Assembly (NCBI GenBank): GCA_040902075.1
Contig: JBBDXZ010000106.1
Span: 4,417-68,416, forward strand
Length of the DNA: 64,000 bases
Origin: Gemmatimonadaceae bacterium
GTDB taxonomy: Bacteria > Gemmatimonadota > Gemmatimonadetes > Gemmatimonadales > Gemmatimonadaceae
Reading direction: 5' to 3'
The notes under the pieces were generated by a model. The model was given only the letters and a program-made list of their open reading frames with translations. It did no database searches and was not told the origin of the DNA. This document shows positions 40,102 to 45,330 of this stretch, one piece after another. Positions within the stretch are counted from its first letter, which is position 1, and each line of letters starts with the position of its first letter. The translations under genes and the position numbers were made by a program.

Positions 40102-43100
40102 CTATCGGCGGCGCTGGCTGGCGACGTAAGCGTTTCGCGCCGCGATCTCCGGCTGCGTGAGCGGCCCCTCCTCGGGGACGCGCAGACGCTGGCCAGGGCG
40201 GAGGGCTTCAGGTGACGCCAGTTGATCCAGATTTGCCAGCCAGATCCTGGGCCAGAGCTCCGCGTCGGCATACATGACGCGGGCGATTGCCCGCAGACTC
40301 TTGTCGTGTCGCGTCACCGTGTAATAGTGTCGCACGGTTGGCGCACGCCATGACGAGTCGGCTCGCGGCCAACCGTCGGCGGGAGGCCGGAGTCGAGCGA
40401 GATATGCGTCGCGCGCGGCAATCTCCTCGCCGGTGAGCGGCGCCTTTGGCGGAACGACGAGAGAGTCGCCGAGACGCATCATCTCGGGCCGCCCGATCAG
40501 CTCGCGATTGGCGACCCATAACTTTGGCCAGAGGTCGGCGTCGCGATATGCCACGCGCGCTATCTGCACGAGGCTGACGTCGCCGGGACCAACCACGTGC
40601 ACCCGGCGTGTCGTGCGCGTCGTCGTTCCTGACGCCGGCTGCGCTGGCCGACCTGGCGTCAACTCGGCCGCGGCGATCATGCGCACCGGACGTCGCGTCG
40701 GCAGCGCGCGAATCAGAACCTCTCGTGTGTCGCCAGGCTTCAGATCGAGCTCGAATCGCTCCTGTTCCAACCCGTGCGGCGAAGTCGAGCCGCGGCTCAC
40801 CGTGAGAACCCAGCGTCCCGGGTGCAGATCGGCAAAGTTGAATCGGCCAAATGCGTCCGGAACGACGCGGACCGTGTCGCCGTCGACCAGCGTCAGCGCG
40901 ACATCCACGAGCGGGGCCGCGTCCACGAGGCTGTCCGGCGCGCCAAGCGGGCGCCCTTCCTGATACTCGAAGGTGCGAGCGCGGCCGTGAATGCGAACAC
41001 TCGGCACGACTGAAAGCTCGATGCGGCGCGTCTCACCGCTCGTGAGATCGACATTCAACGGCGTCGCCGGCGTGATCATGTGGTCGGCGGGCAACTTGCT
41101 GCGATCCACCTCGAGGAAGTACCGACCGGCGTCGAGGCCGGAGAATTGTACCCAACCGTCGGAGTCGGTCATCCGGGCTTCATCGCCGAGGCGCACGACG
41201 ATTCCACCCGCGGGTCGTCGCGAGATGGCGTCGACCAGCCGCGCGTAAATCGCTCCGGATTCCCGCGTCCTCCCGACGGGGAGCGCCACCGGCATCGCAT
41301 ACTCGGCGAACTGCATCGACTGCGGTTGCGCGGTTCCGGGATACGAGAGCGACCGCCCCTGCCACGACACCCGGTGCCCGAAGGGAAGCGCGCGTCCCAA
41401 CCCCACGTCGAGCATCGTGAACGTGCTCGCATTGGCGTCGTCGTACCTGACCGCGTTGAACCCGATGTTCAAGTTCGTGCCCGGCAGGACGCGGATGGAT
41501 GCACCGGCTCTGGCGCTGGTAAATTCCTGTGGGACGAACGAAAAGCCGGGCGTGCCGCTCTGTTGATCGATCGCGAATGACAGCGTCTGCTCCCCTTTGC
41601 TGGCCGACGTGCCGAGTCCGTACCTTCGGAACGACACCTGCGTCGTGGGCTGGCCGTCGAAAACCGTGAACCCGTCCTCTACCTCGGCGCGGAAAAAGAA
41701 GATCGAAAGCGGGAGACCGGTGTTCACTCGAGTGGACCGGGAGGTCCGGCCGGGAGTGGTAGCGAGGAGAAGGCCAGTCTGGCGCGTATGCTGGTAGGTC
41801 ACGGATATGAACTGACCGAAAGAGATGCCGCTTTCGGCGACACGCTGCCGCGAATCCGGAATGACGGGCTGCTGGAGCATGCCGCTACGCGCCGCGTCCG
41901 CGAAGTTGCCGAAGATGTCGACGTTGCGTGTGAGCATCATGCGGAGCGTCGCATCCAGGTACGAGCTGCCGCGTATCGGGCTCGGGAACTCGACGCCGGC
42001 GGCCTCGCGTCGCGCGCCATACGTAAAAGGACCGGTCCTGCCGTTCAGAGAGACTGTGTGCGCCGCGTCGCTCCGTGCGGCTCCACTGCTCCGGCCATAC
42101 TCCCAGCCGAGCGACGCCCCGGCCAGCGGCGAGAGGCTTCCACGCAAACTCCAGATGTCTCCGGCGAGCACGCCACTGCGAGTGAGAAATCCGGCGCCGA
42201 TGCGCGCTCGGTCGAACAGTGACGCGTCAACGGTCGCCCCGTGCTGAAACTCGCGCGTGAAGGCGAACGAGCGCCGGTCACGCACGCTGAACGCGCCGAA
42301 GGTGAGCGCGCCGGCCGTGAGATCTCCGGCCGCACCGAAGGTCGGCCGTCCACTCTGGCTCAGCCGCGAGCCACCATATCCCTGGTCGCCGACACGCAGC
42401 TGGTATCTGTCCGCGGCTGAAAGACCCACCCAGTACTCGTTCGGCTGGGCGAATGCGGAGCCGCGCGGGTTGGGTCCGCGAAAAAGGAAGTCGATGCGAT
42501 TCGTGCCGGTCTCAGAGAAGTAGCCGGCGCCTCGCAGTTCTGCGCTGAGGCTTCGATCGTCTTCCTCGCGCCGCAGCGCCAGTTGCGCCGGAATAGTCAC
42601 GAAGCGGGACGGCGCGCTGGCTTGGCGCGGAATGACTTCCACGGTACTGACGACGGACACGGCCTCCGCCGTATCCGACGCGATGTTGGCGACTACGTGC
42701 ACCCGGTGCATCTGGCGGGCTTTCACTCGCGCGTCGGTTCCAGCGGCTACGTGCACGGTTCGTTCGACGCCGACGTCCAGGTGCAGCAGCGCGCTGTCCA
42801 ACTGCACGGGCGATCGCGGAGTCGCGGACGCCTGAAGGCGCACGACGACGGGCGCGTTGCCGGCATTCCGTATGGTGAATCGCGCGGTGTATCCCTCGCC
42901 GGCGGCCACGAACGGGGGGGCCGATTCCACCGTGCCGGAGATGCGCCGGCGCTCGGGAACTACTACGACCACGGAGTCCACCGAGGCACCGACGGCATAA
43001 CGCAGTGCGTGAGCGCCGGCGCGGGCGGAAGACGGAACTCCGATCATGACGAGGGCCACCTGAGATTCCCGCGGCACGAGCACCGTCGGACCGTTCGGGA

Positions 43101-43350
43101 CGATGAGGCGCCACGCGTCCGGGAGCGCGAGACGTCCCTCGACGGTGCGGTTCGCCGGCGTGTGGTTCGTGAGACGAAAGGCGAGAGTCAGCTTGCTGCC
43201 AGGAGTCGCACTCAGCCTCGCCGGACCGCGTCGCTCCACGACAACGTCCGCGGAGGCTGCGCCCCGCTGCTGCGCGCTCGACGTGCCGGCGGTCGCCAGA
43301 GCGAGCGCCCATCCCCACGAGCCGACAGCGCATATCCGGCGTAGAGTCAT
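40102..43350 (-). CDS. Large outer-membrane usher-like protein: Ig-like N-domains, beta-barrel-like core, CarboxypepD_reg-like domains and 2 C-terminal LysM domains
   Basis: The Met at 43350 gives MTLRRICAVGSWGWALALATAGTSSAQ; the track start at 43428 would overlap the upstream gene. There are two CARDB/NEW3-like segments and then about 450 aa with alternating beta-strand character. GIVVRL.D......TDSDGW..F.GL..GRY and PDAFGRFNFADLHPGRW are carboxypeptidase-regulatory-like. The two LysM motifs are H.V..GD.SL..IA...Y.DA.LWP.LW.AN and YTVTRHDKSLRAIARVMYADAELWPRIWLAN. The usher role is an inference. Confidence 0.65.
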   Translation of the reverse strand: MTLRRICAVGSWGWALALATAGTSSAQQRGAASADVVVERRGPARLSATPGSKLTLAFRLTNHTPANRTVEGRLALPDAWRLIVPNGPTVLVPRESQVALVMIGVPSSARAGAHALRYAVGASVDSVVVVVPERRRISGTVESAPPFVAAGEGYTARFTIRNAGNAPVVVRLQASATPRSPVQLDSALLHLDVGVERTVHVAAGTDARVKARQMHRVHVVANIASDTAEAVSVVSTVEVIPRQASAPSRFVTIPAQLALRREEDDRSLSAELRGAGYFSETGTNRIDFLFRGPNPRGSAFAQPNEYWVGLSAADRYQLRVGDQGYGGSRLSQSGRPTFGAAGDLTAGALTFGAFSVRDRRSFAFTREFQHGATVDASLFDRARIGAGFLTRSGVLAGDIWSLRGSLSPLAGASLGWEYGRSSGAARSDAAHTVSLNGRTGPFTYGARREAAGVEFPSPIRGSSYLDATLRMMLTRNVDIFGNFADAARSGMLQQPVIPDSRQRVAESGISFGQFISVTYQHTRQTGLLLATTPGRTSRSTRVNTGLPLSIFFFRAEVEDGFTVFDGQPTTQVSFRRYGLGTSASKGEQTLSFAIDQQSGTPGFSFVPQEFTSARAGASIRVLPGTNLNIGFNAVRYDDANASTFTMLDVGLGRALPFGHRVSWQGRSLSYPGTAQPQSMQFAEYAMPVALPVGRTRESGAIYARLVDAISRRPAGGIVVRLGDEARMTDSDGWVQFSGLDAGRYFLEVDRSKLPADHMITPATPLNVDLTSGETRRIELSVVPSVRIHGRARTFEYQEGRPLGAPDSLVDAAPLVDVALTLVDGDTVRVVPDAFGRFNFADLHPGRWVLTVSRGSTSPHGLEQERFELDLKPGDTREVLIRALPTRRPVRMIAAAELTPGRPAQPASGTTTRTTRRVHVVGPGDVSLVQIARVAYRDADLWPKLWVANRELIGRPEMMRLGDSLVVPPKAPLTGEEIAARDAYLARLRPPADGWPRADSSWRAPTVRHYYTVTRHDKSLRAIARVMYADAELWPRIWLANLDQLASPEALRPGQRLRVPEEGPLTQPEIAARNAYVASQRRR

Positions 43351-43359
43351 GAATGGGCT

Positions 43360-43368
43360 GGGGGGGGG
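43360..43368. repeat. Homopolymeric G9 (C9 on coding strand) tract
   Basis: Nine consecutive G at 43360-43368, followed by AA and GGGG. It lies 10 nt upstream of the ATG at 43350, or inside the coding sequence (RPLPPPSPF) if the 43428 start is used. Confidence 0.9.
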
Positions 43369-43378
43369 AAGGGGACGT

Positions 43379-44200
43379 CTAAAAGTTGAGCGTGTACTGG
43401 GCGCCGAAGAGCGCGTCATCGCCCGCATCGACCGTCACGATCGCGCGATACCGTCCGCGCGGCAGGCGGCCGAGCTCGAAGCGGTGACGCAGCGACGTCC
43501 CCGGATAGCTCATCTCGCGCGGCGCGGAGAGCGACTTCACGTGCGTACCGTCCGCCGCGTAGAGCTCCACCGAAACGATGGGGTGGAAGGCGACGTTGCC
43601 GGTGTTCTTCACGTCGAACTGCAGCACCTTGGCGCTGTCCTGGGCGCCAACCACGGTGGGTGCCGCGAACTCCGCGTTGCGCCTCGCGTCTATCGGGACG
43701 TCCGTGATGATCGCGACCGCATACCGAGTCCGCGTGCTGAACGTCATCTGGCCGGGACGCGAGGGCGGGGGTCCGCTCGACGACTCCGCGGACCCGCGCG
43801 GTACCCCTTCCACCATGACCAGACTCCAATATGAGCCCGACAGCGGCTGTCCCGCGGGCACGGTGACGGTGAACGGGATGTTCAGGGTCTGGTTGGGCGG
43901 GACGACGACGCGCGACGGCCCGATGGCCACCCACTGCGCATTGGATCGCGGCAGCTTGCCGGGCTCGCCGAATGTTACGGTGCCGTCGGCGCTCGTGTAA
44001 TAGTCGGTCTGGTAAAGCTTTACCTCTTGCGGCTCCGGCGAGGCGTTGCGGACGGCAAACTGGCCGGTATAGGTGTCTCCAGGGCGCGCCCGCTGCTGCC
44101 TCACCGCGTCGCCCTGGACCGCCACTTGGGCAGGGGCGTCCTGAGCGACGACCGCGCCGATGAAAGCAATGCCCGCAATAATGAAGCGCGTCCGCTGCAT
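43379..44200 (-). CDS. Periplasmic two-Ig-fold protein, chaperone-like (DUF916/PapD-like by architecture)
   Basis: 273-aa ORF with a signal peptide (FIIAGIAFIGAVVAQDAPAQ). Two beta-sandwich-like halves each contain an F.V.N.....V pattern. It lies immediately upstream of the usher-like gene. The assignment rests on architecture only. Confidence 0.5.
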   Translation of the reverse strand: MQRTRFIIAGIAFIGAVVAQDAPAQVAVQGDAVRQQRARPGDTYTGQFAVRNASPEPQEVKLYQTDYYTSADGTVTFGEPGKLPRSNAQWVAIGPSRVVVPPNQTLNIPFTVTVPAGQPLSGSYWSLVMVEGVPRGSAESSSGPPPSRPGQMTFSTRTRYAVAIITDVPIDARRNAEFAAPTVVGAQDSAKVLQFDVKNTGNVAFHPIVSVELYAADGTHVKSLSAPREMSYPGTSLRHRFELGRLPRGRYRAIVTVDAGDDALFGAQYTLNF

Positions 44201-44356
44201 GTTCTTAAAGGACCTTCATGATTTGAGGATTATTCACGGTCGGCGGGACCCGGACGGGGGCCGGGCCGTACAGGGGCCACTAATCAGCAGTCTGGCGCAA
44301 GGCGTGTCAACCAATATGTTTGTCGTCCACGATTCCCACAGTCCGCGGAGGATTTC

Positions 44357-44821
44357 ATGAAGCGCGTGCATCACCTGCTCGTCACCGTTGCATTGCTCGG
44401 CGGCGCCGGCGCCGCCTCGGCTCAGACGACGGCCACCCAAAACGTCACGATCACGGTCACGGAGGTAGACATAATCACGGTCGCTGGCGGCGACGTGGCC
44501 ATATCGGTCGGCGTCGGCAGCACGCAGGCCGCGAGGACGTACAGCGTCACCACCAACGGCACCGCGCGAACGATCACCGGCCAGATCACGACCGGCGTCA
44601 ACTTCCCTACGGGCCTCACGCTCACGACCAACCTGGTGGCTCCCACGAACGCGTCGAGCAACGGCGCGGTCGCGCTCACCACGACGGCGGCCACTCTTGT
44701 TACCGGGATCGCCAACGTGGATCAGAGTGGATTGGGCATTACTTACACCGCCACCGCGACAGCGTCGGCACCGACGGGCGCGCAAGGCCAGAGAACGATC
44801 ACGTACACGATCGTTCCGTGA
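44357..44821 (+). CDS. Secreted Thr/Ala/Gly-rich fibre-subunit-like protein 1
   Basis: 154-aa ORF with a signal peptide (LLVTVALLGGAGAASAQ). The composition is all-beta and Thr-rich, ending ...RTITYTIVP. It resembles SCPU/Csu-type or other small pilin-like subunits and is divergent from the chaperone-like gene. Confidence 0.55.
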   Translation: MKRVHHLLVTVALLGGAGAASAQTTATQNVTITVTEVDIITVAGGDVAISVGVGSTQAARTYSVTTNGTARTITGQITTGVNFPTGLTLTTNLVAPTNASSNGAVALTTTAATLVTGIANVDQSGLGITYTATATASAPTGAQGQRTITYTIVP

Positions 44822-44883
44822 ACGAGTAGGAAGGGATAAGGGGATCGCTTCGCGGCGCTCCCCTGTTCCCGCCGGCTATCCAG

Positions 44884-45330
44884 ATGCAAAGGATCGAGCA
44901 CTGCGTCGTCGCGTTGCTATTGACGCTGAGCGCGCCGTTCGCGGGCGCTCAGGTGCTCAGCGTGTCAGGGAACCCGAGTTCGCTCACCGTCAGCACCGCG
45001 ACGGCTGGACTCGGGCTGGACCCCGTGGTCGATGCCAGCACGACGTATTCGGTCACAACGACGTTGCCGAATCAGAAGATCGTCGCGCGCCTCACGACAG
45101 CGCTGCCAAGTGGCGTCATCCTGAAGGTGCGTTTGCAGCCGCCAAGCGGCGTCACGGCGCTCGGTGATATTTCGCTCACCACGACGAATGCCGATGTCGT
45201 GGGCCCGATTCCGGTCATTGGACCTCATCTGACGCTCTCGATCACGTACACGCTGTCCGCCCTCGTCACCGCGGGCACCGTCTCCACGACGGGCCGTGAC
45301 GTTGTCTTCAGCGTCGTTGCCGGTCCCTGA
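44884..45330 (+). CDS. Secreted fibre-subunit-like protein 2
   Basis: 148-aa ORF with a signal peptide (VVALLLTLSAPFAGAQ). Size and composition are similar to subunit 1, and it starts 62 nt downstream of it. Confidence 0.55.
   Translation: MQRIEHCVVALLLTLSAPFAGAQVLSVSGNPSSLTVSTATAGLGLDPVVDASTTYSVTTTLPNQKIVARLTTALPSGVILKVRLQPPSGVTALGDISLTTTNADVVGPIPVIGPHLTLSITYTLSALVTAGTVSTTGRDVVFSVVAGP

What the first reader, a model, noticed from the sequence alone, without database searches (positions are those of the whole stretch)
40102..45330. Atypical chaperone-usher-like surface-fibre locus with a LysM-anchored 1083-1108-aa outer-membrane protein
The locus is divergently arranged. Two small secreted Thr-rich all-beta proteins (154 and 148 aa) face a two-Ig-domain periplasmic protein. 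That protein is followed by a giant protein containing CARDB/NEW3-like domains, a long beta-barrel-like core, two carboxypeptidase-regulatory-like domains and two C-terminal LysM peptidoglycan-binding repeats.

The gene logic (subunits, chaperone-like protein, pore-like protein) mirrors archaic chaperone-usher (Csu/SCPU) systems. The domain composition of the usher does not resemble classical FimD/PapC ushers, and I do not know LysM tails as a feature of ushers. This may be a lineage-specific fibre or S-layer assembly machine.
Basis: partly seen in the sequence, partly recalled or inferred. Interest (0 to 1): 0.6.

Follow-up and report, generated by a model that had tools for sequence, protein, structure and literature searches.

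The report
Unannotated chaperone-usher-like pilus locus
These four genes most likely build a hair-like surface fibre by a chaperone-and-outer-membrane-pore route; the family occurs in many environmental Gram-negative phyla, is annotated nowhere, and its chaperone most resembles one just described for Gram-positive WxL pili.

Summary
The window holds two small secreted subunits (154 and 148 aa), a 273-aa two-Ig-domain periplasmic protein, and a 1082-aa outer-membrane protein.

The order subunit(s), chaperone-like gene, big gene recurs in 80 loci labelled as about 10 diderm phyla. All named homologues are "hypothetical protein".

- **Big protein.** The AlphaFold model (pLDDT 86.7) shows 2 Ig domains, 26 barrel strands, 2 transthyretin-like domains and 2 LysM. 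Its best PDB matches are the ushers FimD and PapC (E 1e-13). It has no sequence similarity to ushers and no plug-sized insert.
- **Chaperone-like protein.** A relative's model best matches Enterococcus WxLIP (DUF916/DUF3324; E 1e-12), then the CU chaperones CfaA, CsuC and Caf1M.
- **Subunits.** They are bimodal. Most carry a 12-14-residue N-terminal strand with alternating hydrophobic residues. One per locus, usually the gene just before the chaperone (here s2), lacks exactly that strand, like a pilus tip subunit.

Best reading (0.7): a donor-strand-exchange fibre system that works like chaperone-usher pili but belongs to no described family. The LysM tail, replaced by SPOR in other phyla, would tether the usher to peptidoglycan.

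This scan met the same family before on other DNA. It is not lineage-specific. No experiment exists.

The parts
40102..43350 (-). BIG: 1082-aa usher-like outer-membrane protein (signal peptide, 2 Ig-like domains, about 26-strand barrel, 2 transthyretin-like domains, linker, 2 LysM)
   Evidence: AF2 pLDDT 86.7. Top Foldseek matches are FimD 3rfz_B (E 9.8e-14) and PapC. Co-occurs with the chaperone-like gene in 76 of 80 loci.
42631..43245 (-). BIG residues 36-240: two N-terminal Ig-like (CARDB/NEW3-like) domains, inferred periplasmic and possibly the docking site for chaperone-subunit complexes
   Evidence: DSSP of the model. NPCBM_assoc/NEW3 is below threshold here and above the cut-off in relatives. 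The periplasmic side is inferred from the even strand count plus the peptidoglycan-binding C-terminus.
41269..42603 (-). BIG residues 250-694: 26 consecutive antiparallel strands, the predicted outer-membrane barrel. No plug-sized insertion; the last strand carries the conserved EY-x-IPL motif.
   Evidence: Strand list and loop lengths. Foldseek matches to ushers, LptD, AlgE and porins. No sequence similarity to E. coli ushers by hhalign.
40699..41256 (-). BIG residues 699-884: two CarboxypepD_reg (transthyretin-like) beta-sandwich domains, placed where usher CTD1 and CTD2 sit
   Evidence: Pfam PF13620, 41.3 bits against a 32.3 cut-off, 2 stretches. PDB profile matches to NOMO and SdrD B domains. 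DSSP.
40108..40605 (-). BIG residues 916-1081: two LysM repeats after a disordered linker (889-914), a peptidoglycan-binding tail
   Evidence: NCBIfam PRK11198 LysM, E 3.6e-13, 2 stretches. Two beta-alpha-alpha-beta units at pLDDT above 90. Present only in a Gemmatimonadota/Rhodothermales subgroup.
43351..43378 (-). 28-nt spacer between the chaperone-like gene and BIG, containing a C9 run
   Evidence: Sequence read directly. Function not tested.
43379..44200 (-). chap: 273-aa soluble periplasmic two-Ig-domain chaperone-like protein with no C-terminal membrane helix
   Evidence: Pfam DUF916 (PF06030), E 1.6e-4, below threshold. 23 of 81 family members hit PF06030 and none hit PapD_N. The model of a 41%-identical relative matches WxLIP 9i25_C (E 1.4e-12), then CfaA, CsuC and Caf1M.
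43691..43837 (-). chap residues about 122-170: conserved YWSxxMVEG strand, variable loop, then an alternating-hydrophobic strand with invariant R159 (RYxVQ). This is the candidate F1-G1 donor hairpin.
   Evidence: Invariant columns W125, M129, E131 and R159. hhalign places it opposite the FWxNxxxIPP/G1 region of E. coli chaperones. Strands 303-314 and 337-346 in the relative's model.
44201..44356 (.). Divergent intergenic region between chap/BIG (-) and s1/s2 (+), presumably holding both promoters. A GGAGG lies 10 nt before the s1 ATG.
   Evidence: Sequence read directly. The same divergent layout is seen in relatives L027 and L047.
44357..44821 (+). s1: 154-aa secreted Thr-rich subunit, long type, with an N-terminal extension. 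Candidate major, polymerising subunit.
   Evidence: Family alignment. 20 residues lie between the cleavage site and the conserved Gly. No Pfam or PDB sequence match.
44423..44467 (+). s1 residues 23-37 (QTTATQNVTITVTEV): candidate donor strand with alternating hydrophobic residues
   Evidence: Consensus over 129 long-type subunits: V7 100%, position 9 99%, V11 100%, position 14 99% hydrophobic. The equivalent segment has pLDDT below 50 for most of its length (mean 61 over residues 31-40) and is not folded back in the relative's model.
44884..45330 (+). s2: 148-aa secreted subunit, short type, lacking exactly the N-terminal extension. Candidate first-in or tip subunit.
   Evidence: 5 residues between the cleavage site and the conserved Gly. 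Short-type subunits have 100% gaps at extension positions 2-13. There is one per locus in 46 loci, and 40 of 50 genes immediately upstream of the chaperone gene are short type.

Best explanation
[quoted passage not shown] It works like a chaperone-usher pilus but is built from families that no current domain model recognises.

Proposed mechanism:
1. s1 and s2 are exported by Sec.
2. In the periplasm the soluble two-Ig-domain protein (chap) captures each subunit. It inserts its conserved F1-G1-like hairpin (YWSxxMVEG ... RYxVQ) into the groove of the subunit's beta-sandwich.
3. The complexes dock on the periplasmic Ig-like domains of BIG, a roughly 26-strand outer-membrane barrel.
4. s2, which has no N-terminal extension, enters first and ends up at the distal tip.
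5. s1 then polymerises. Each copy gives its 12-14-residue N-terminal strand (V-x-F/V/I-x-V-x-A-I) to the preceding subunit and displaces the chaperone.
6. The fibre is threaded out through the barrel.
7. The two C-terminal LysM repeats pin the pore to peptidoglycan.

Shown in silico: gene co-conservation, the folds of BIG and chap, and the presence or absence of the N-terminal strand.

Inferred only: outer-membrane location, donor-strand complementation and exchange, order of incorporation, the role of LysM, and what the fibre does (adhesion or biofilm matrix).
For: **Synteny.** The order s(1-5), chap, BIG, (s) occurs in 8 relatives and in a second locus of the same genome. It also occurs in 80 loci from MAGs labelled Gemmatimonadota, Ignavibacteriota, Bacteroidota, Rhodothermota, Planctomycetota, Verrucomicrobiota, Desulfobacterota, Spirochaetota, Acidobacteriota, Cloacimonadota and one Gammaproteobacterium.

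**BIG.** The AF2 model has pLDDT 86.7. Eight of the top fourteen Foldseek matches, including ranks 1-8 apart from none below E 1e-10, are ushers: FimD 3rfz_B at E 9.8e-14 over 775 columns, 9fxb_D, 6e14_D, and PapC 7lhh_C and 6cd2_C. These rank ahead of other barrels, at 1e-6 or weaker. The DSSP count gives 26 strands, an even number. Peptidoglycan-binding C-terminal tails, LysM or SPOR, put both termini in the periplasm.

**chap.** The model of a relative matches WxLIP 9i25_C (E 1.4e-12, TM 0.56) and 9i1y, then CfaA, CsuC, Caf1M, YadV, FaeE, EcpB, FimC and PapD. Below-threshold DUF916 hits occur in 23 of 81 members. hhalign against 11 E. coli chaperones gives E 0.003, against 0.31 for the reversed control.

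**Subunits.** The N-terminal length distribution is strictly bimodal, 4-7 versus 17-23 residues, with nothing in between. The short type lacks only the alternating-hydrophobic strand and sits immediately upstream of chap in 40 of 50 cases. There is one short type per locus in 46 loci. The extension is not folded back onto its own subunit in the model: pLDDT is below 50 for residues 1-34 and averages 61 over residues 31-40.

**Precedent.** WxL pilins with a DUF916/DUF3324 chaperone assemble by donor-strand exchange (bioRxiv 10.64898/2026.10.17.759780).
Against: - There is no experimental evidence for any member.
- BIG has no detectable sequence similarity to ushers. hhalign gives 1.2% probability, no better than the reversed control.
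- Foldseek TM-scores to ushers are low (0.30-0.38). Part of the E-value may reflect the generic combination of a barrel with Ig-like domains.
- No plug-sized domain is inserted in the barrel, so gating is unexplained.
- I could not obtain coordinates, so barrel closure and strand count rest on the DSSP string alone.
- The read-through subunit-chaperone fusion model gave pTM 0.54. That does not show confident docking of subunit on chaperone.
- The fold of the subunit was not compared with any library on its own. Subunits have no sequence match to CU pilins, WxL domains or TLP-1.
- The chaperone model is of a 41%-identical relative, not of the window protein.
Confidence: 0.7

Rival explanations
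1. It is simply a very divergent true member of the classical or archaic (sigma, Csu/CupE/SCPU) chaperone-usher family. BIG would be a homologue of FimD/CsuD and chap a homologue of PapD/CsuC whose sequences have drifted beyond the reach of profiles. It would not be a separate family nearer to the WxL system.
For: The mechanism and gene logic are the same. Ushers are the best structural matches for BIG. CU chaperones, including archaic CsuC and alternative CfaA, are strong matches for chap. More distant Gemmatimonadota relatives of chap (L021, L022, L025) hit PapD_N weakly at E 3.8e-4.
Against: - No PF00577, PF00345 or SCPU match in the window proteins, in 81 chaperone relatives, in 8 BIG relatives or elsewhere in this genome, which is 82% complete.
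- The profile-profile score for BIG against 9 E. coli ushers equals the reversed control.
- WxLIP ranks about 1000-fold better in E-value than any CU chaperone.
- The architecture differs: 26 strands rather than 24, no plug insert, two N-terminal Ig domains, and transthyretin-type C-terminal domains.
Confidence: 0.15
2. It does not make a fibre. BIG would be an outer-membrane protein tethered to peptidoglycan (an envelope staple or export pore). It would display or release monomeric small proteins or a two-dimensional surface layer, with chap acting as a holdase.
For: LysM or SPOR tails recur on BIG. The subunits are small, Thr-rich and without recognisable adhesin domains. The fusion model did not show confident docking (pTM 0.54). 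No filament has been seen.
Against: - The conserved presence or absence of a single N-terminal strand with alternating hydrophobic residues, with one strand-less paralogue per locus, is the signature of head-to-tail strand-exchange polymers and has no obvious role for monomers.
- Many BIG homologues have no peptidoglycan-binding tail at all.
- Multiple paralogous subunits per operon are typical of pili.
Confidence: 0.12
3. BIG is a nutrient-uptake barrel of the SusC/TonB-dependent kind, suggested by its CarboxypepD_reg domains. The small proteins would be substrate-binding partners.
For: CarboxypepD_reg domains also occur at the N-terminus of SusC-like transporters. A glucoamylase-like/GH3 gene pair lies next door. 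TonB-dependent receptors appear among weaker Foldseek matches (E 1e-5 to 1e-6).
Against: - No TonB plug or TonB-dependent receptor Pfam match.
- The CarboxypepD_reg domains are C-terminal to the barrel, not N-terminal.
- The small proteins have no lipoprotein Cys.
- The glycosidase neighbours are not conserved in related loci.
- Ushers outrank TonB-dependent receptors by about 7 orders of magnitude.
Confidence: 0.03

Closest known systems
WxL (Elr) pilus of Enterococcus and other Bacillota: WxL pilins plus the DUF916/DUF3324 chaperone WxLIP/ElrE (bioRxiv 10.64898/2026.10.17.759780; PDB 9i25, 9i1y)
   Same: The chaperone-like protein (modelled on a relative) is structurally closest to WxLIP (E 1.4e-12) and gives below-threshold DUF916 matches. 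Subunits are small beta-sandwich proteins with a roughly 14-residue N-terminal strand of alternating hydrophobic residues. The operon has several paralogous subunits.
   Different: - The host is a diderm.
- The chaperone is soluble, with no C-terminal membrane helix.
- The subunits have no Trp and so no WxL motifs, and no sequence match to WxL.
- There is no LPxTG subunit or sortase.
- A large outer-membrane usher-like protein is always present.
- The preprint reports the WxL system as confined to Bacillota.
Classical and archaic chaperone-usher pili (FimC/FimD/FimA-H, PapD/PapC, CsuC/CsuD/CsuA-B, CfaA, Caf1M)
   Same: The gene logic matches: subunits, periplasmic chaperone, outer-membrane pore. 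FimD and PapC are the best structural matches of BIG, and CU chaperones are the second-best group for chap. One subunit lacks the N-terminal extension, as tip adhesins do.
   Different: - No Pfam Usher, PapD_N, Fimbrial or SCPU signal.
- No profile-profile similarity of BIG to ushers.
- About 26 strands rather than 24, with no plug insert.
- Two CARDB/NEW3-like N-terminal domains.
- Transthyretin-like C-terminal domains.
- LysM or SPOR tails.
- The tip-like subunit has no extra lectin domain.
TLP-1a/b donor-strand-exchange tubular fibrils from pond water (PNAS 2024, PMC11494351; PDB 9IKJ, 9IKK)
   Same: These are environmental fibres of unknown producer. They are built from a small beta-rich protomer whose N-terminal strand, disordered in AF2 monomer models, completes an Ig-like fold in another protomer. 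Their nearest predicted structures are in Flavobacteriales.
   Different: No sequence similarity between this subunit family and the PDB entries. A structural comparison could not be run.

Membership tests
Classical/archaic chaperone-usher pathway | Usher with Pfam Usher (PF00577) barrel and PapC_N/PapC_C domains | tested here: not met
   No match in BIG, in 8 relatives or anywhere in the genome. hhalign of A4 against 9 E. coli ushers gives 1.2% probability, the same as the reversed control.
Classical/archaic chaperone-usher pathway | Usher architecture by structure: large outer-membrane barrel flanked by periplasmic beta-sandwich domains, with a plug domain inside the barrel | tested here: inconclusive
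   FimD and PapC are the top Foldseek matches (E 1e-13 to 1e-9, TM 0.30-0.38), and the model has a barrel with N- and C-terminal sandwiches. DSSP gives 26 strands and shows no plug-sized insertion.
Classical/archaic chaperone-usher pathway | PapD-like periplasmic chaperone (PF00345/PF02753) | tested here: inconclusive
   By sequence it is not met: 0 of 81 members hit PapD_N and hhalign gives 10.6% probability. By fold, the model of a 41%-identical relative shows clear similarity to CfaA, CsuC, Caf1M, EcpB, FimC and PapD (E 2e-9 to 1e-6).
Classical/archaic chaperone-usher pathway | [quoted passage not shown] | tested here: met
   Bimodal N-terminal lengths; the short type lacks only the alternating-hydrophobic strand; one short type per locus. 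This is a sequence inference only.
Classical/archaic chaperone-usher pathway | Subunits of the Fimbrial (PF00419) or SCPU (PF05229) families | tested here: not met
   No Pfam match at E up to 1 for s1, s2 or seven Ignavibacteriales subunits. No PDB sequence match.
WxL/Elr pilus system | DUF916 plus DUF3324 chaperone (PF06030 and PF11797 above threshold) | tested here: inconclusive
   PF06030 scores 22.1 bits against a 27.3 cut-off in the window protein. 23 of 81 members match below threshold, and PF11797 matches in 2 of 81. Structurally WxLIP is the best match of the relative's model.
WxL/Elr pilus system | Chaperone anchored by a C-terminal transmembrane helix | tested here: not met
   chap ends at the last strand of the second Ig domain (...GAQYTLNF) and the family is uniformly about 270 aa.
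WxL/Elr pilus system | Pilins with a WxL domain (two Trp-x-Leu motifs) | tested here: not met
   s1 and s2 contain no Trp. There is no Pfam WxL match.
WxL/Elr pilus system | LPxTG terminator subunit and sortase anchoring | tested here: not met
   No LPxTG-ending subunit among s1, s2 or their relatives. The host phylum is diderm.
TonB-dependent/SusC-like transporters | N-terminal plug (PF07715) and TonB-dependent receptor barrel | tested here: not met
   No such Pfam matches. TonB-dependent receptors rank far below ushers in Foldseek.
TLP-1 fibrils | Sequence or fold identity of the subunit with PDB 9IKJ/9IKK | tested here: inconclusive
   No sequence match at E up to 10 with a 38-sequence profile or a Bacteroidota member.

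The most novel reading that the evidence does not exclude
This family would be the diderm counterpart, either sister or ancestor, of the Gram-positive WxL pilus system. It would pair a periplasmic WxLIP-type chaperone with a new class of outer-membrane usher: 26 strands, no plug, often tethered to peptidoglycan, and not homologous to FimD/PapC. Chaperone-assisted donor-strand exchange would then be an ancient trait spread across bacteria rather than a proteobacterial invention copied once in Bacillota. It would also mean ushers arose at least twice.
Probability: 0.35. Interest if true: 0.85.

Novelty: new variant of a known kind. Interest (0 to 1): 0.7.

Why it matters
Chaperone-usher pili are textbook machines studied almost only in Proteobacteria. 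The WxL pilus of Bacillota was described in October 2026 and reported as confined to that phylum, with chaperones forming a family disjoint from CU chaperones.

This locus belongs to a large unannotated family. The chaperone profile finds 783 clusters (at 50% identity) at E up to 1e-30 and 2407 at E up to 1e-10. The family is spread over soil, freshwater and sediment phyla, and it joins a WxLIP-like chaperone to an usher-like pore.

If it makes fibres, three things follow:
- It identifies the adhesion or biofilm appendage of many uncultured diderm lineages.
- It gives a testable bridge between the Gram-positive and Gram-negative strand-exchange pathways.
- It offers a second usher design, without a plug and tethered to peptidoglycan, for understanding how fibres are threaded through an outer membrane without ATP.

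Tried and rejected
- **PDB sequence and profile searches.** Searches for chap (A1, A6), BIG (A4) and the subunits (A5, plus one Bacteroidota member) gave little. EcpB appeared at E 0.38 for A1, and transthyretin-like domains appeared for BIG. WxLIP, ushers, pilins and TLP-1 did not appear.
- **hhalign of BIG against E. coli K-12 ushers.** No signal above the reversed control.
- **hhalign of chap against E. coli chaperones.** Weak: 10.6% probability, but above the control.
- **The search for related loci with the BIG alignment.** Failed for lack of a conserved stretch of 7-10 columns. The chaperone alignment worked instead.
- **Mixed alignment of a fusion plus separate subunit and chaperone rows (A7).** It was misaligned, because signal peptides were anchored together, and I discarded it.
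- **Read-through fusion of a subunit and the chaperone from relative L103.** The stop codon was read as Gly and 34 paired rows were used (A8). I modelled it to see whether AF2 would dock the subunit on the chaperone. pTM was 0.54, so docking is inconclusive, but the chaperone fold was usable. This chain is a modelling device, not a natural protein.
- **Literature searches for a prior description of this diderm family.** Nothing found.
- **SusC-like and glycan-utilisation readings.** Rejected. The neighbouring glucoamylase-like/GH3 pair and the M1 peptidase are not conserved with the locus.

Full report
**What is there**

The window comes from a soil Gemmatimonadaceae MAG (82% complete). At 40102-45330 there are four genes in a divergent layout.
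- On the + strand: s1 (44357-44821, 154 aa) and s2 (44884-45330, 148 aa).
- On the - strand: a 273-aa protein I call chap (43379-44200), then after a 28-nt spacer a large protein I call BIG (40102-43350).

BIG is 1082 aa from the ATG at 43350. The 1108-aa alternative would overlap chap. Neither the database-called product nor the homologue alignment supports it. All four proteins start with signal-peptide-like sequences.

The flanking genes are an M1 aminopeptidase and a glucoamylase-like/GH3 pair. They are not conserved with the locus elsewhere, so the module is these four genes.

**Domain models**

Pfam and NCBIfam say little.
- BIG has two CarboxypepD_reg domains above the cut-off, a weak NEW3/CARDB-like signal, and two LysM repeats (NCBIfam PRK11198, E 3.6e-13).
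- chap gives only a below-threshold match to PF06030 (DUF916, the N-terminal domain of WxL-interacting proteins).
- s1 and s2 match nothing.
- The genome holds no Pfam Usher or PapD_N match at all.
- Every homologue of chap that carries a name in public sources is called "hypothetical protein", apart from one JGI label, "Fn3-like domain (DUF1034)".

**Co-conservation**

A second, co-linear copy of the system (s, chap, BIG, s, s; BIG without LysM) lies on another contig of the same genome. The same order is present in eight related genomes.

A scan of one genome per species with two conserved chaperone peptides found 193 relatives. I examined the best 80 loci. They carry depositor labels as follows:

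| Label | Loci |
|---|---|
| Gemmatimonadota, including Longimicrobia | 37 |
| Ignavibacteriota | 11 |
| Bacteroidota | 6 |
| Desulfobacterota or "Deltaproteobacteria" | 5 |
| Rhodothermales | 4 |
| Planctomycetota | 4 |
| Verrucomicrobiota | 3 |
| Spirochaetota | 2 |
| Acidobacteriota | 1 |
| Cloacimonadota | 1 |
| Gammaproteobacterial symbiont | 1 |
| Unlabelled | 5 |

In 76 of the 80 loci BIG directly follows chap, and 78 have one to five subunit genes. The exceptions are cut by contig ends.

A profile of 81 chaperones found 783 clusters (at 50% identity) at E up to 1e-30 and 2407 at E up to 1e-10 among 1.84 billion representatives.

The chaperone tree largely follows phyla. It needs 20 label changes against 41 for shuffled labels. 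Gemmatimonadota, Planctomycetota, Verrucomicrobiota and Spirochaetota each fall on one side of a branch or nearly so. This argues for long residence in these lineages rather than recent spread.

**The big protein**

I ran AlphaFold2 with a 61-sequence alignment. The model has mean pLDDT 86.7. From the DSSP string the parts are:
- two Ig-like sandwiches (residues 36-240);
- 26 consecutive antiparallel strands (250-694), with short turns alternating with longer loops and a conserved aromatic-ended last strand;
- two transthyretin-like sandwiches (699-884);
- a disordered linker;
- two beta-alpha-alpha-beta LysM units (916-1081).

Foldseek against the PDB puts ushers first: FimD 3rfz_B (E 9.8e-14, 775 aligned columns), five more FimD entries, and PapC 7lhh, 6cd2 and 2vqi. 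These rank ahead of LptD, AlgE, porins and TonB-dependent receptors, which score 1e-6 or weaker.

Several caveats apply.
- TM-scores are only 0.30-0.38.
- I had no coordinates.
- A profile-profile comparison with nine E. coli K-12 ushers gives nothing above a reversed control.
- There is no plug-sized insertion between barrel hairpins. The largest stretch between full-length barrel strands is 44 residues (293-336) and holds only two short strands.

So BIG has an usher-like architecture but is not a demonstrable usher homologue.

In relatives the C-terminal tail varies. It is LysM (one or two copies) in a Gemmatimonadota/Rhodothermales subgroup, and SPOR (up to 89 bits against a 21-bit cut-off) in Bacteroidota, Ignavibacteriota and a Pelobacter-like MAG. 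In many relatives there is no tail. Two unrelated peptidoglycan-binding modules at the same position place the C-terminus in the periplasm. With an even strand count, the N-terminal Ig domains are periplasmic too, which is where an usher receives chaperone-subunit complexes.

**The chaperone-like protein**

Sequence evidence is weak but consistent.
- 23 of 81 family members hit DUF916 below threshold, 2 hit DUF3324, and none hit PapD_N.
- hhalign against eleven E. coli chaperones gives E 0.003, against 0.31 for the reversed control. It aligns the conserved YWSxxMVEG strand with the FWxNxxxIPP region that precedes the G1 donor strand.

With one structure job left, I modelled a read-through fusion from relative L103: a long-type subunit, the stop codon read as Gly, and the chaperone. 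The alignment held 34 paired rows of the same kind.

The chaperone part is confident, with pLDDT mostly above 90. Its best PDB matches are "WxLIP from Enterococcus faecium" bound to a WxL protein (9i25_C, E 1.4e-12, TM 0.56) and free (9i1y). Next come CfaA, CsuC, Caf1M, YadV, FaeE, DraB, EcpB, FimC and PapD, at 2e-9 to 1e-6.

chap has no C-terminal membrane helix, unlike 97% of WxL chaperones according to the preprint. It is therefore a soluble periplasmic protein with a pilus-chaperone fold, nearest to the WxLIP branch.

The fusion did not show confident docking of subunit on chaperone (pTM 0.54), so donor-strand complementation is not demonstrated.

**The subunits**

An alignment of about 180 subunits shows two classes and nothing in between.
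- **Long class (129 sequences, including s1).** These have 17-23 residues between the signal-peptide cleavage site and a conserved Gly. The consensus is Q-T-A-T-Q-T-V-T-(F/V/L/Y/I)-x-V-x-A-I-N-x-I-x-V-S-G. Positions 7, 9, 11 and 14 are 99-100% hydrophobic.
- **Short class (49 sequences, including s2).** These have 4-7 residues and lack exactly positions 2-13.

Of the genes immediately upstream of the chaperone, 40 of 50 are short. Of genes at other positions, 8 of 131 are short. Forty-six loci have exactly one short subunit.

A further, more diverged family of small genes occupies the same slot in 17 Planctomycetota, Verrucomicrobiota, Desulfobacterota and Spirochaetota loci.

In the model the extension is largely unstructured: pLDDT is below 50 for residues 1-34 and averages 61 over residues 31-40. 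It is followed by a confident sandwich of about seven strands that ends in the conserved R-x-V-T-x-T strand.

A detachable N-terminal beta-strand carried by all subunits but one is the hallmark of donor-strand-exchange fibres, where the first-in (tip) subunit needs no donor strand.

The subunits have no Trp, so no WxL motifs. They have no Pfam match and no PDB sequence match, including TLP-1.

**Interpretation**

The best-supported explanation is a chaperone-assisted, usher-dependent, donor-strand-exchange fibre.
- s2 is the tip subunit and s1 the polymerising subunit.
- chap is the periplasmic fold-completing chaperone.
- BIG is the outer-membrane assembly pore.
- The LysM repeats fix the pore to the wall.

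The closest experimental precedent for the chaperone is the Enterococcus Elr/WxL pilus (bioRxiv 10.64898/2026.10.17.759780). That paper reports the system as confined to Bacillota and its chaperones as disjoint from CU chaperones. The closest precedent for the overall logic and the pore is the Fim/Pap/Csu chaperone-usher pathway.

Membership in either family fails on defining sequence features, so I file it as "works like", not "is a". What the fibre does is unknown.

In 43 of 80 related loci a response-regulator gene lies beside the operon, which suggests regulated expression. None is adjacent in this window.

**Status in this scan and limits**

Earlier notes of this scan describe what appear to be the same or related operons.
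- An Ignavibacteria-type genome: e1-931523, which shares sequence words with a Bacteroidota chaperone from my set.
- An Opitutaceae genome, Melainabacteria and others.

So the family has been met before on other DNA. My results agree with those notes. They add the long/short subunit rule, the LysM/SPOR tails, the 26-strand count and the WxLIP structures as best match.

No experimental data exist for any member.

Noticed in passing
G000 contig C14, locus L009:9071-14917: A second, co-linear copy of the system sits in the same genome: short-type subunit, chap (268 aa, 39% identical), BIG (920 aa, 28% identical, no LysM), then two long-type subunits. The genome therefore carries two subtypes.
   Followed up: partly
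L032, L037, L039, L093 (C-termini of BIG homologues): BIG homologues in Bacteroidota, Ignavibacteriota and a Pelobacter-like MAG end in SPOR domains (up to 89 bits) where the window protein has LysM. Two unrelated peptidoglycan-binding modules were recruited to the same position.
   Followed up: yes
L026-L105, 1-6 kb from the chaperone gene: Receiver-domain response regulators lie next to the operon in 43 of 80 related loci. They are about 225-260 aa and divergent in Gemmatimonadota, and about 455-470 aa and NtrC-like in Ignavibacteriota, Bacteroidota and Desulfobacterota. The window locus has none adjacent.
   Followed up: partly
window 43351-43378: A run of nine C lies in the 28-nt spacer between the chaperone stop codon and the BIG start codon. 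I only confirmed that it lies outside both reading frames if BIG starts at 43350.
   Followed up: partly
L053 (Candidatus Thiodiazotropha MAG) versus L054, L057-L059: The chaperone of a gammaproteobacterial symbiont MAG nests with 100/100 support inside a clade of Desulfobacterota or "Deltaproteobacteria" MAGs. This points to horizontal transfer or a binning error.
   Followed up: no
L098:2021-10912 (Treponemataceae MAG): Two chaperone plus BIG pairs lie in tandem on one contig, separated by a subunit gene.
   Followed up: no
L049, L053-L059, L063, L070, L072, L076, L088, L092-L094, L099, L104 (about 500 nt upstream of chap): A separate family of small secreted genes, about 160-195 aa, was not detected by the subunit HMM. 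It occupies the slot just before the chaperone in 17 loci of PVC, Desulfobacterota and Spirochaetota. It is probably the diverged equivalent of the short-type subunit.
   Followed up: partly
L021, L022, L025 (other Gemmatimonadota genomes): More distant two-Ig-domain relatives of chap (22-24% identical) hit Pfam PapD_N weakly (E 3.8e-4). They have the I-x-V-x-P-x-x-V start typical of PapD-like chaperones and could be sequence intermediates between the two chaperone families. Their gene neighbourhoods were not examined.
   Followed up: no
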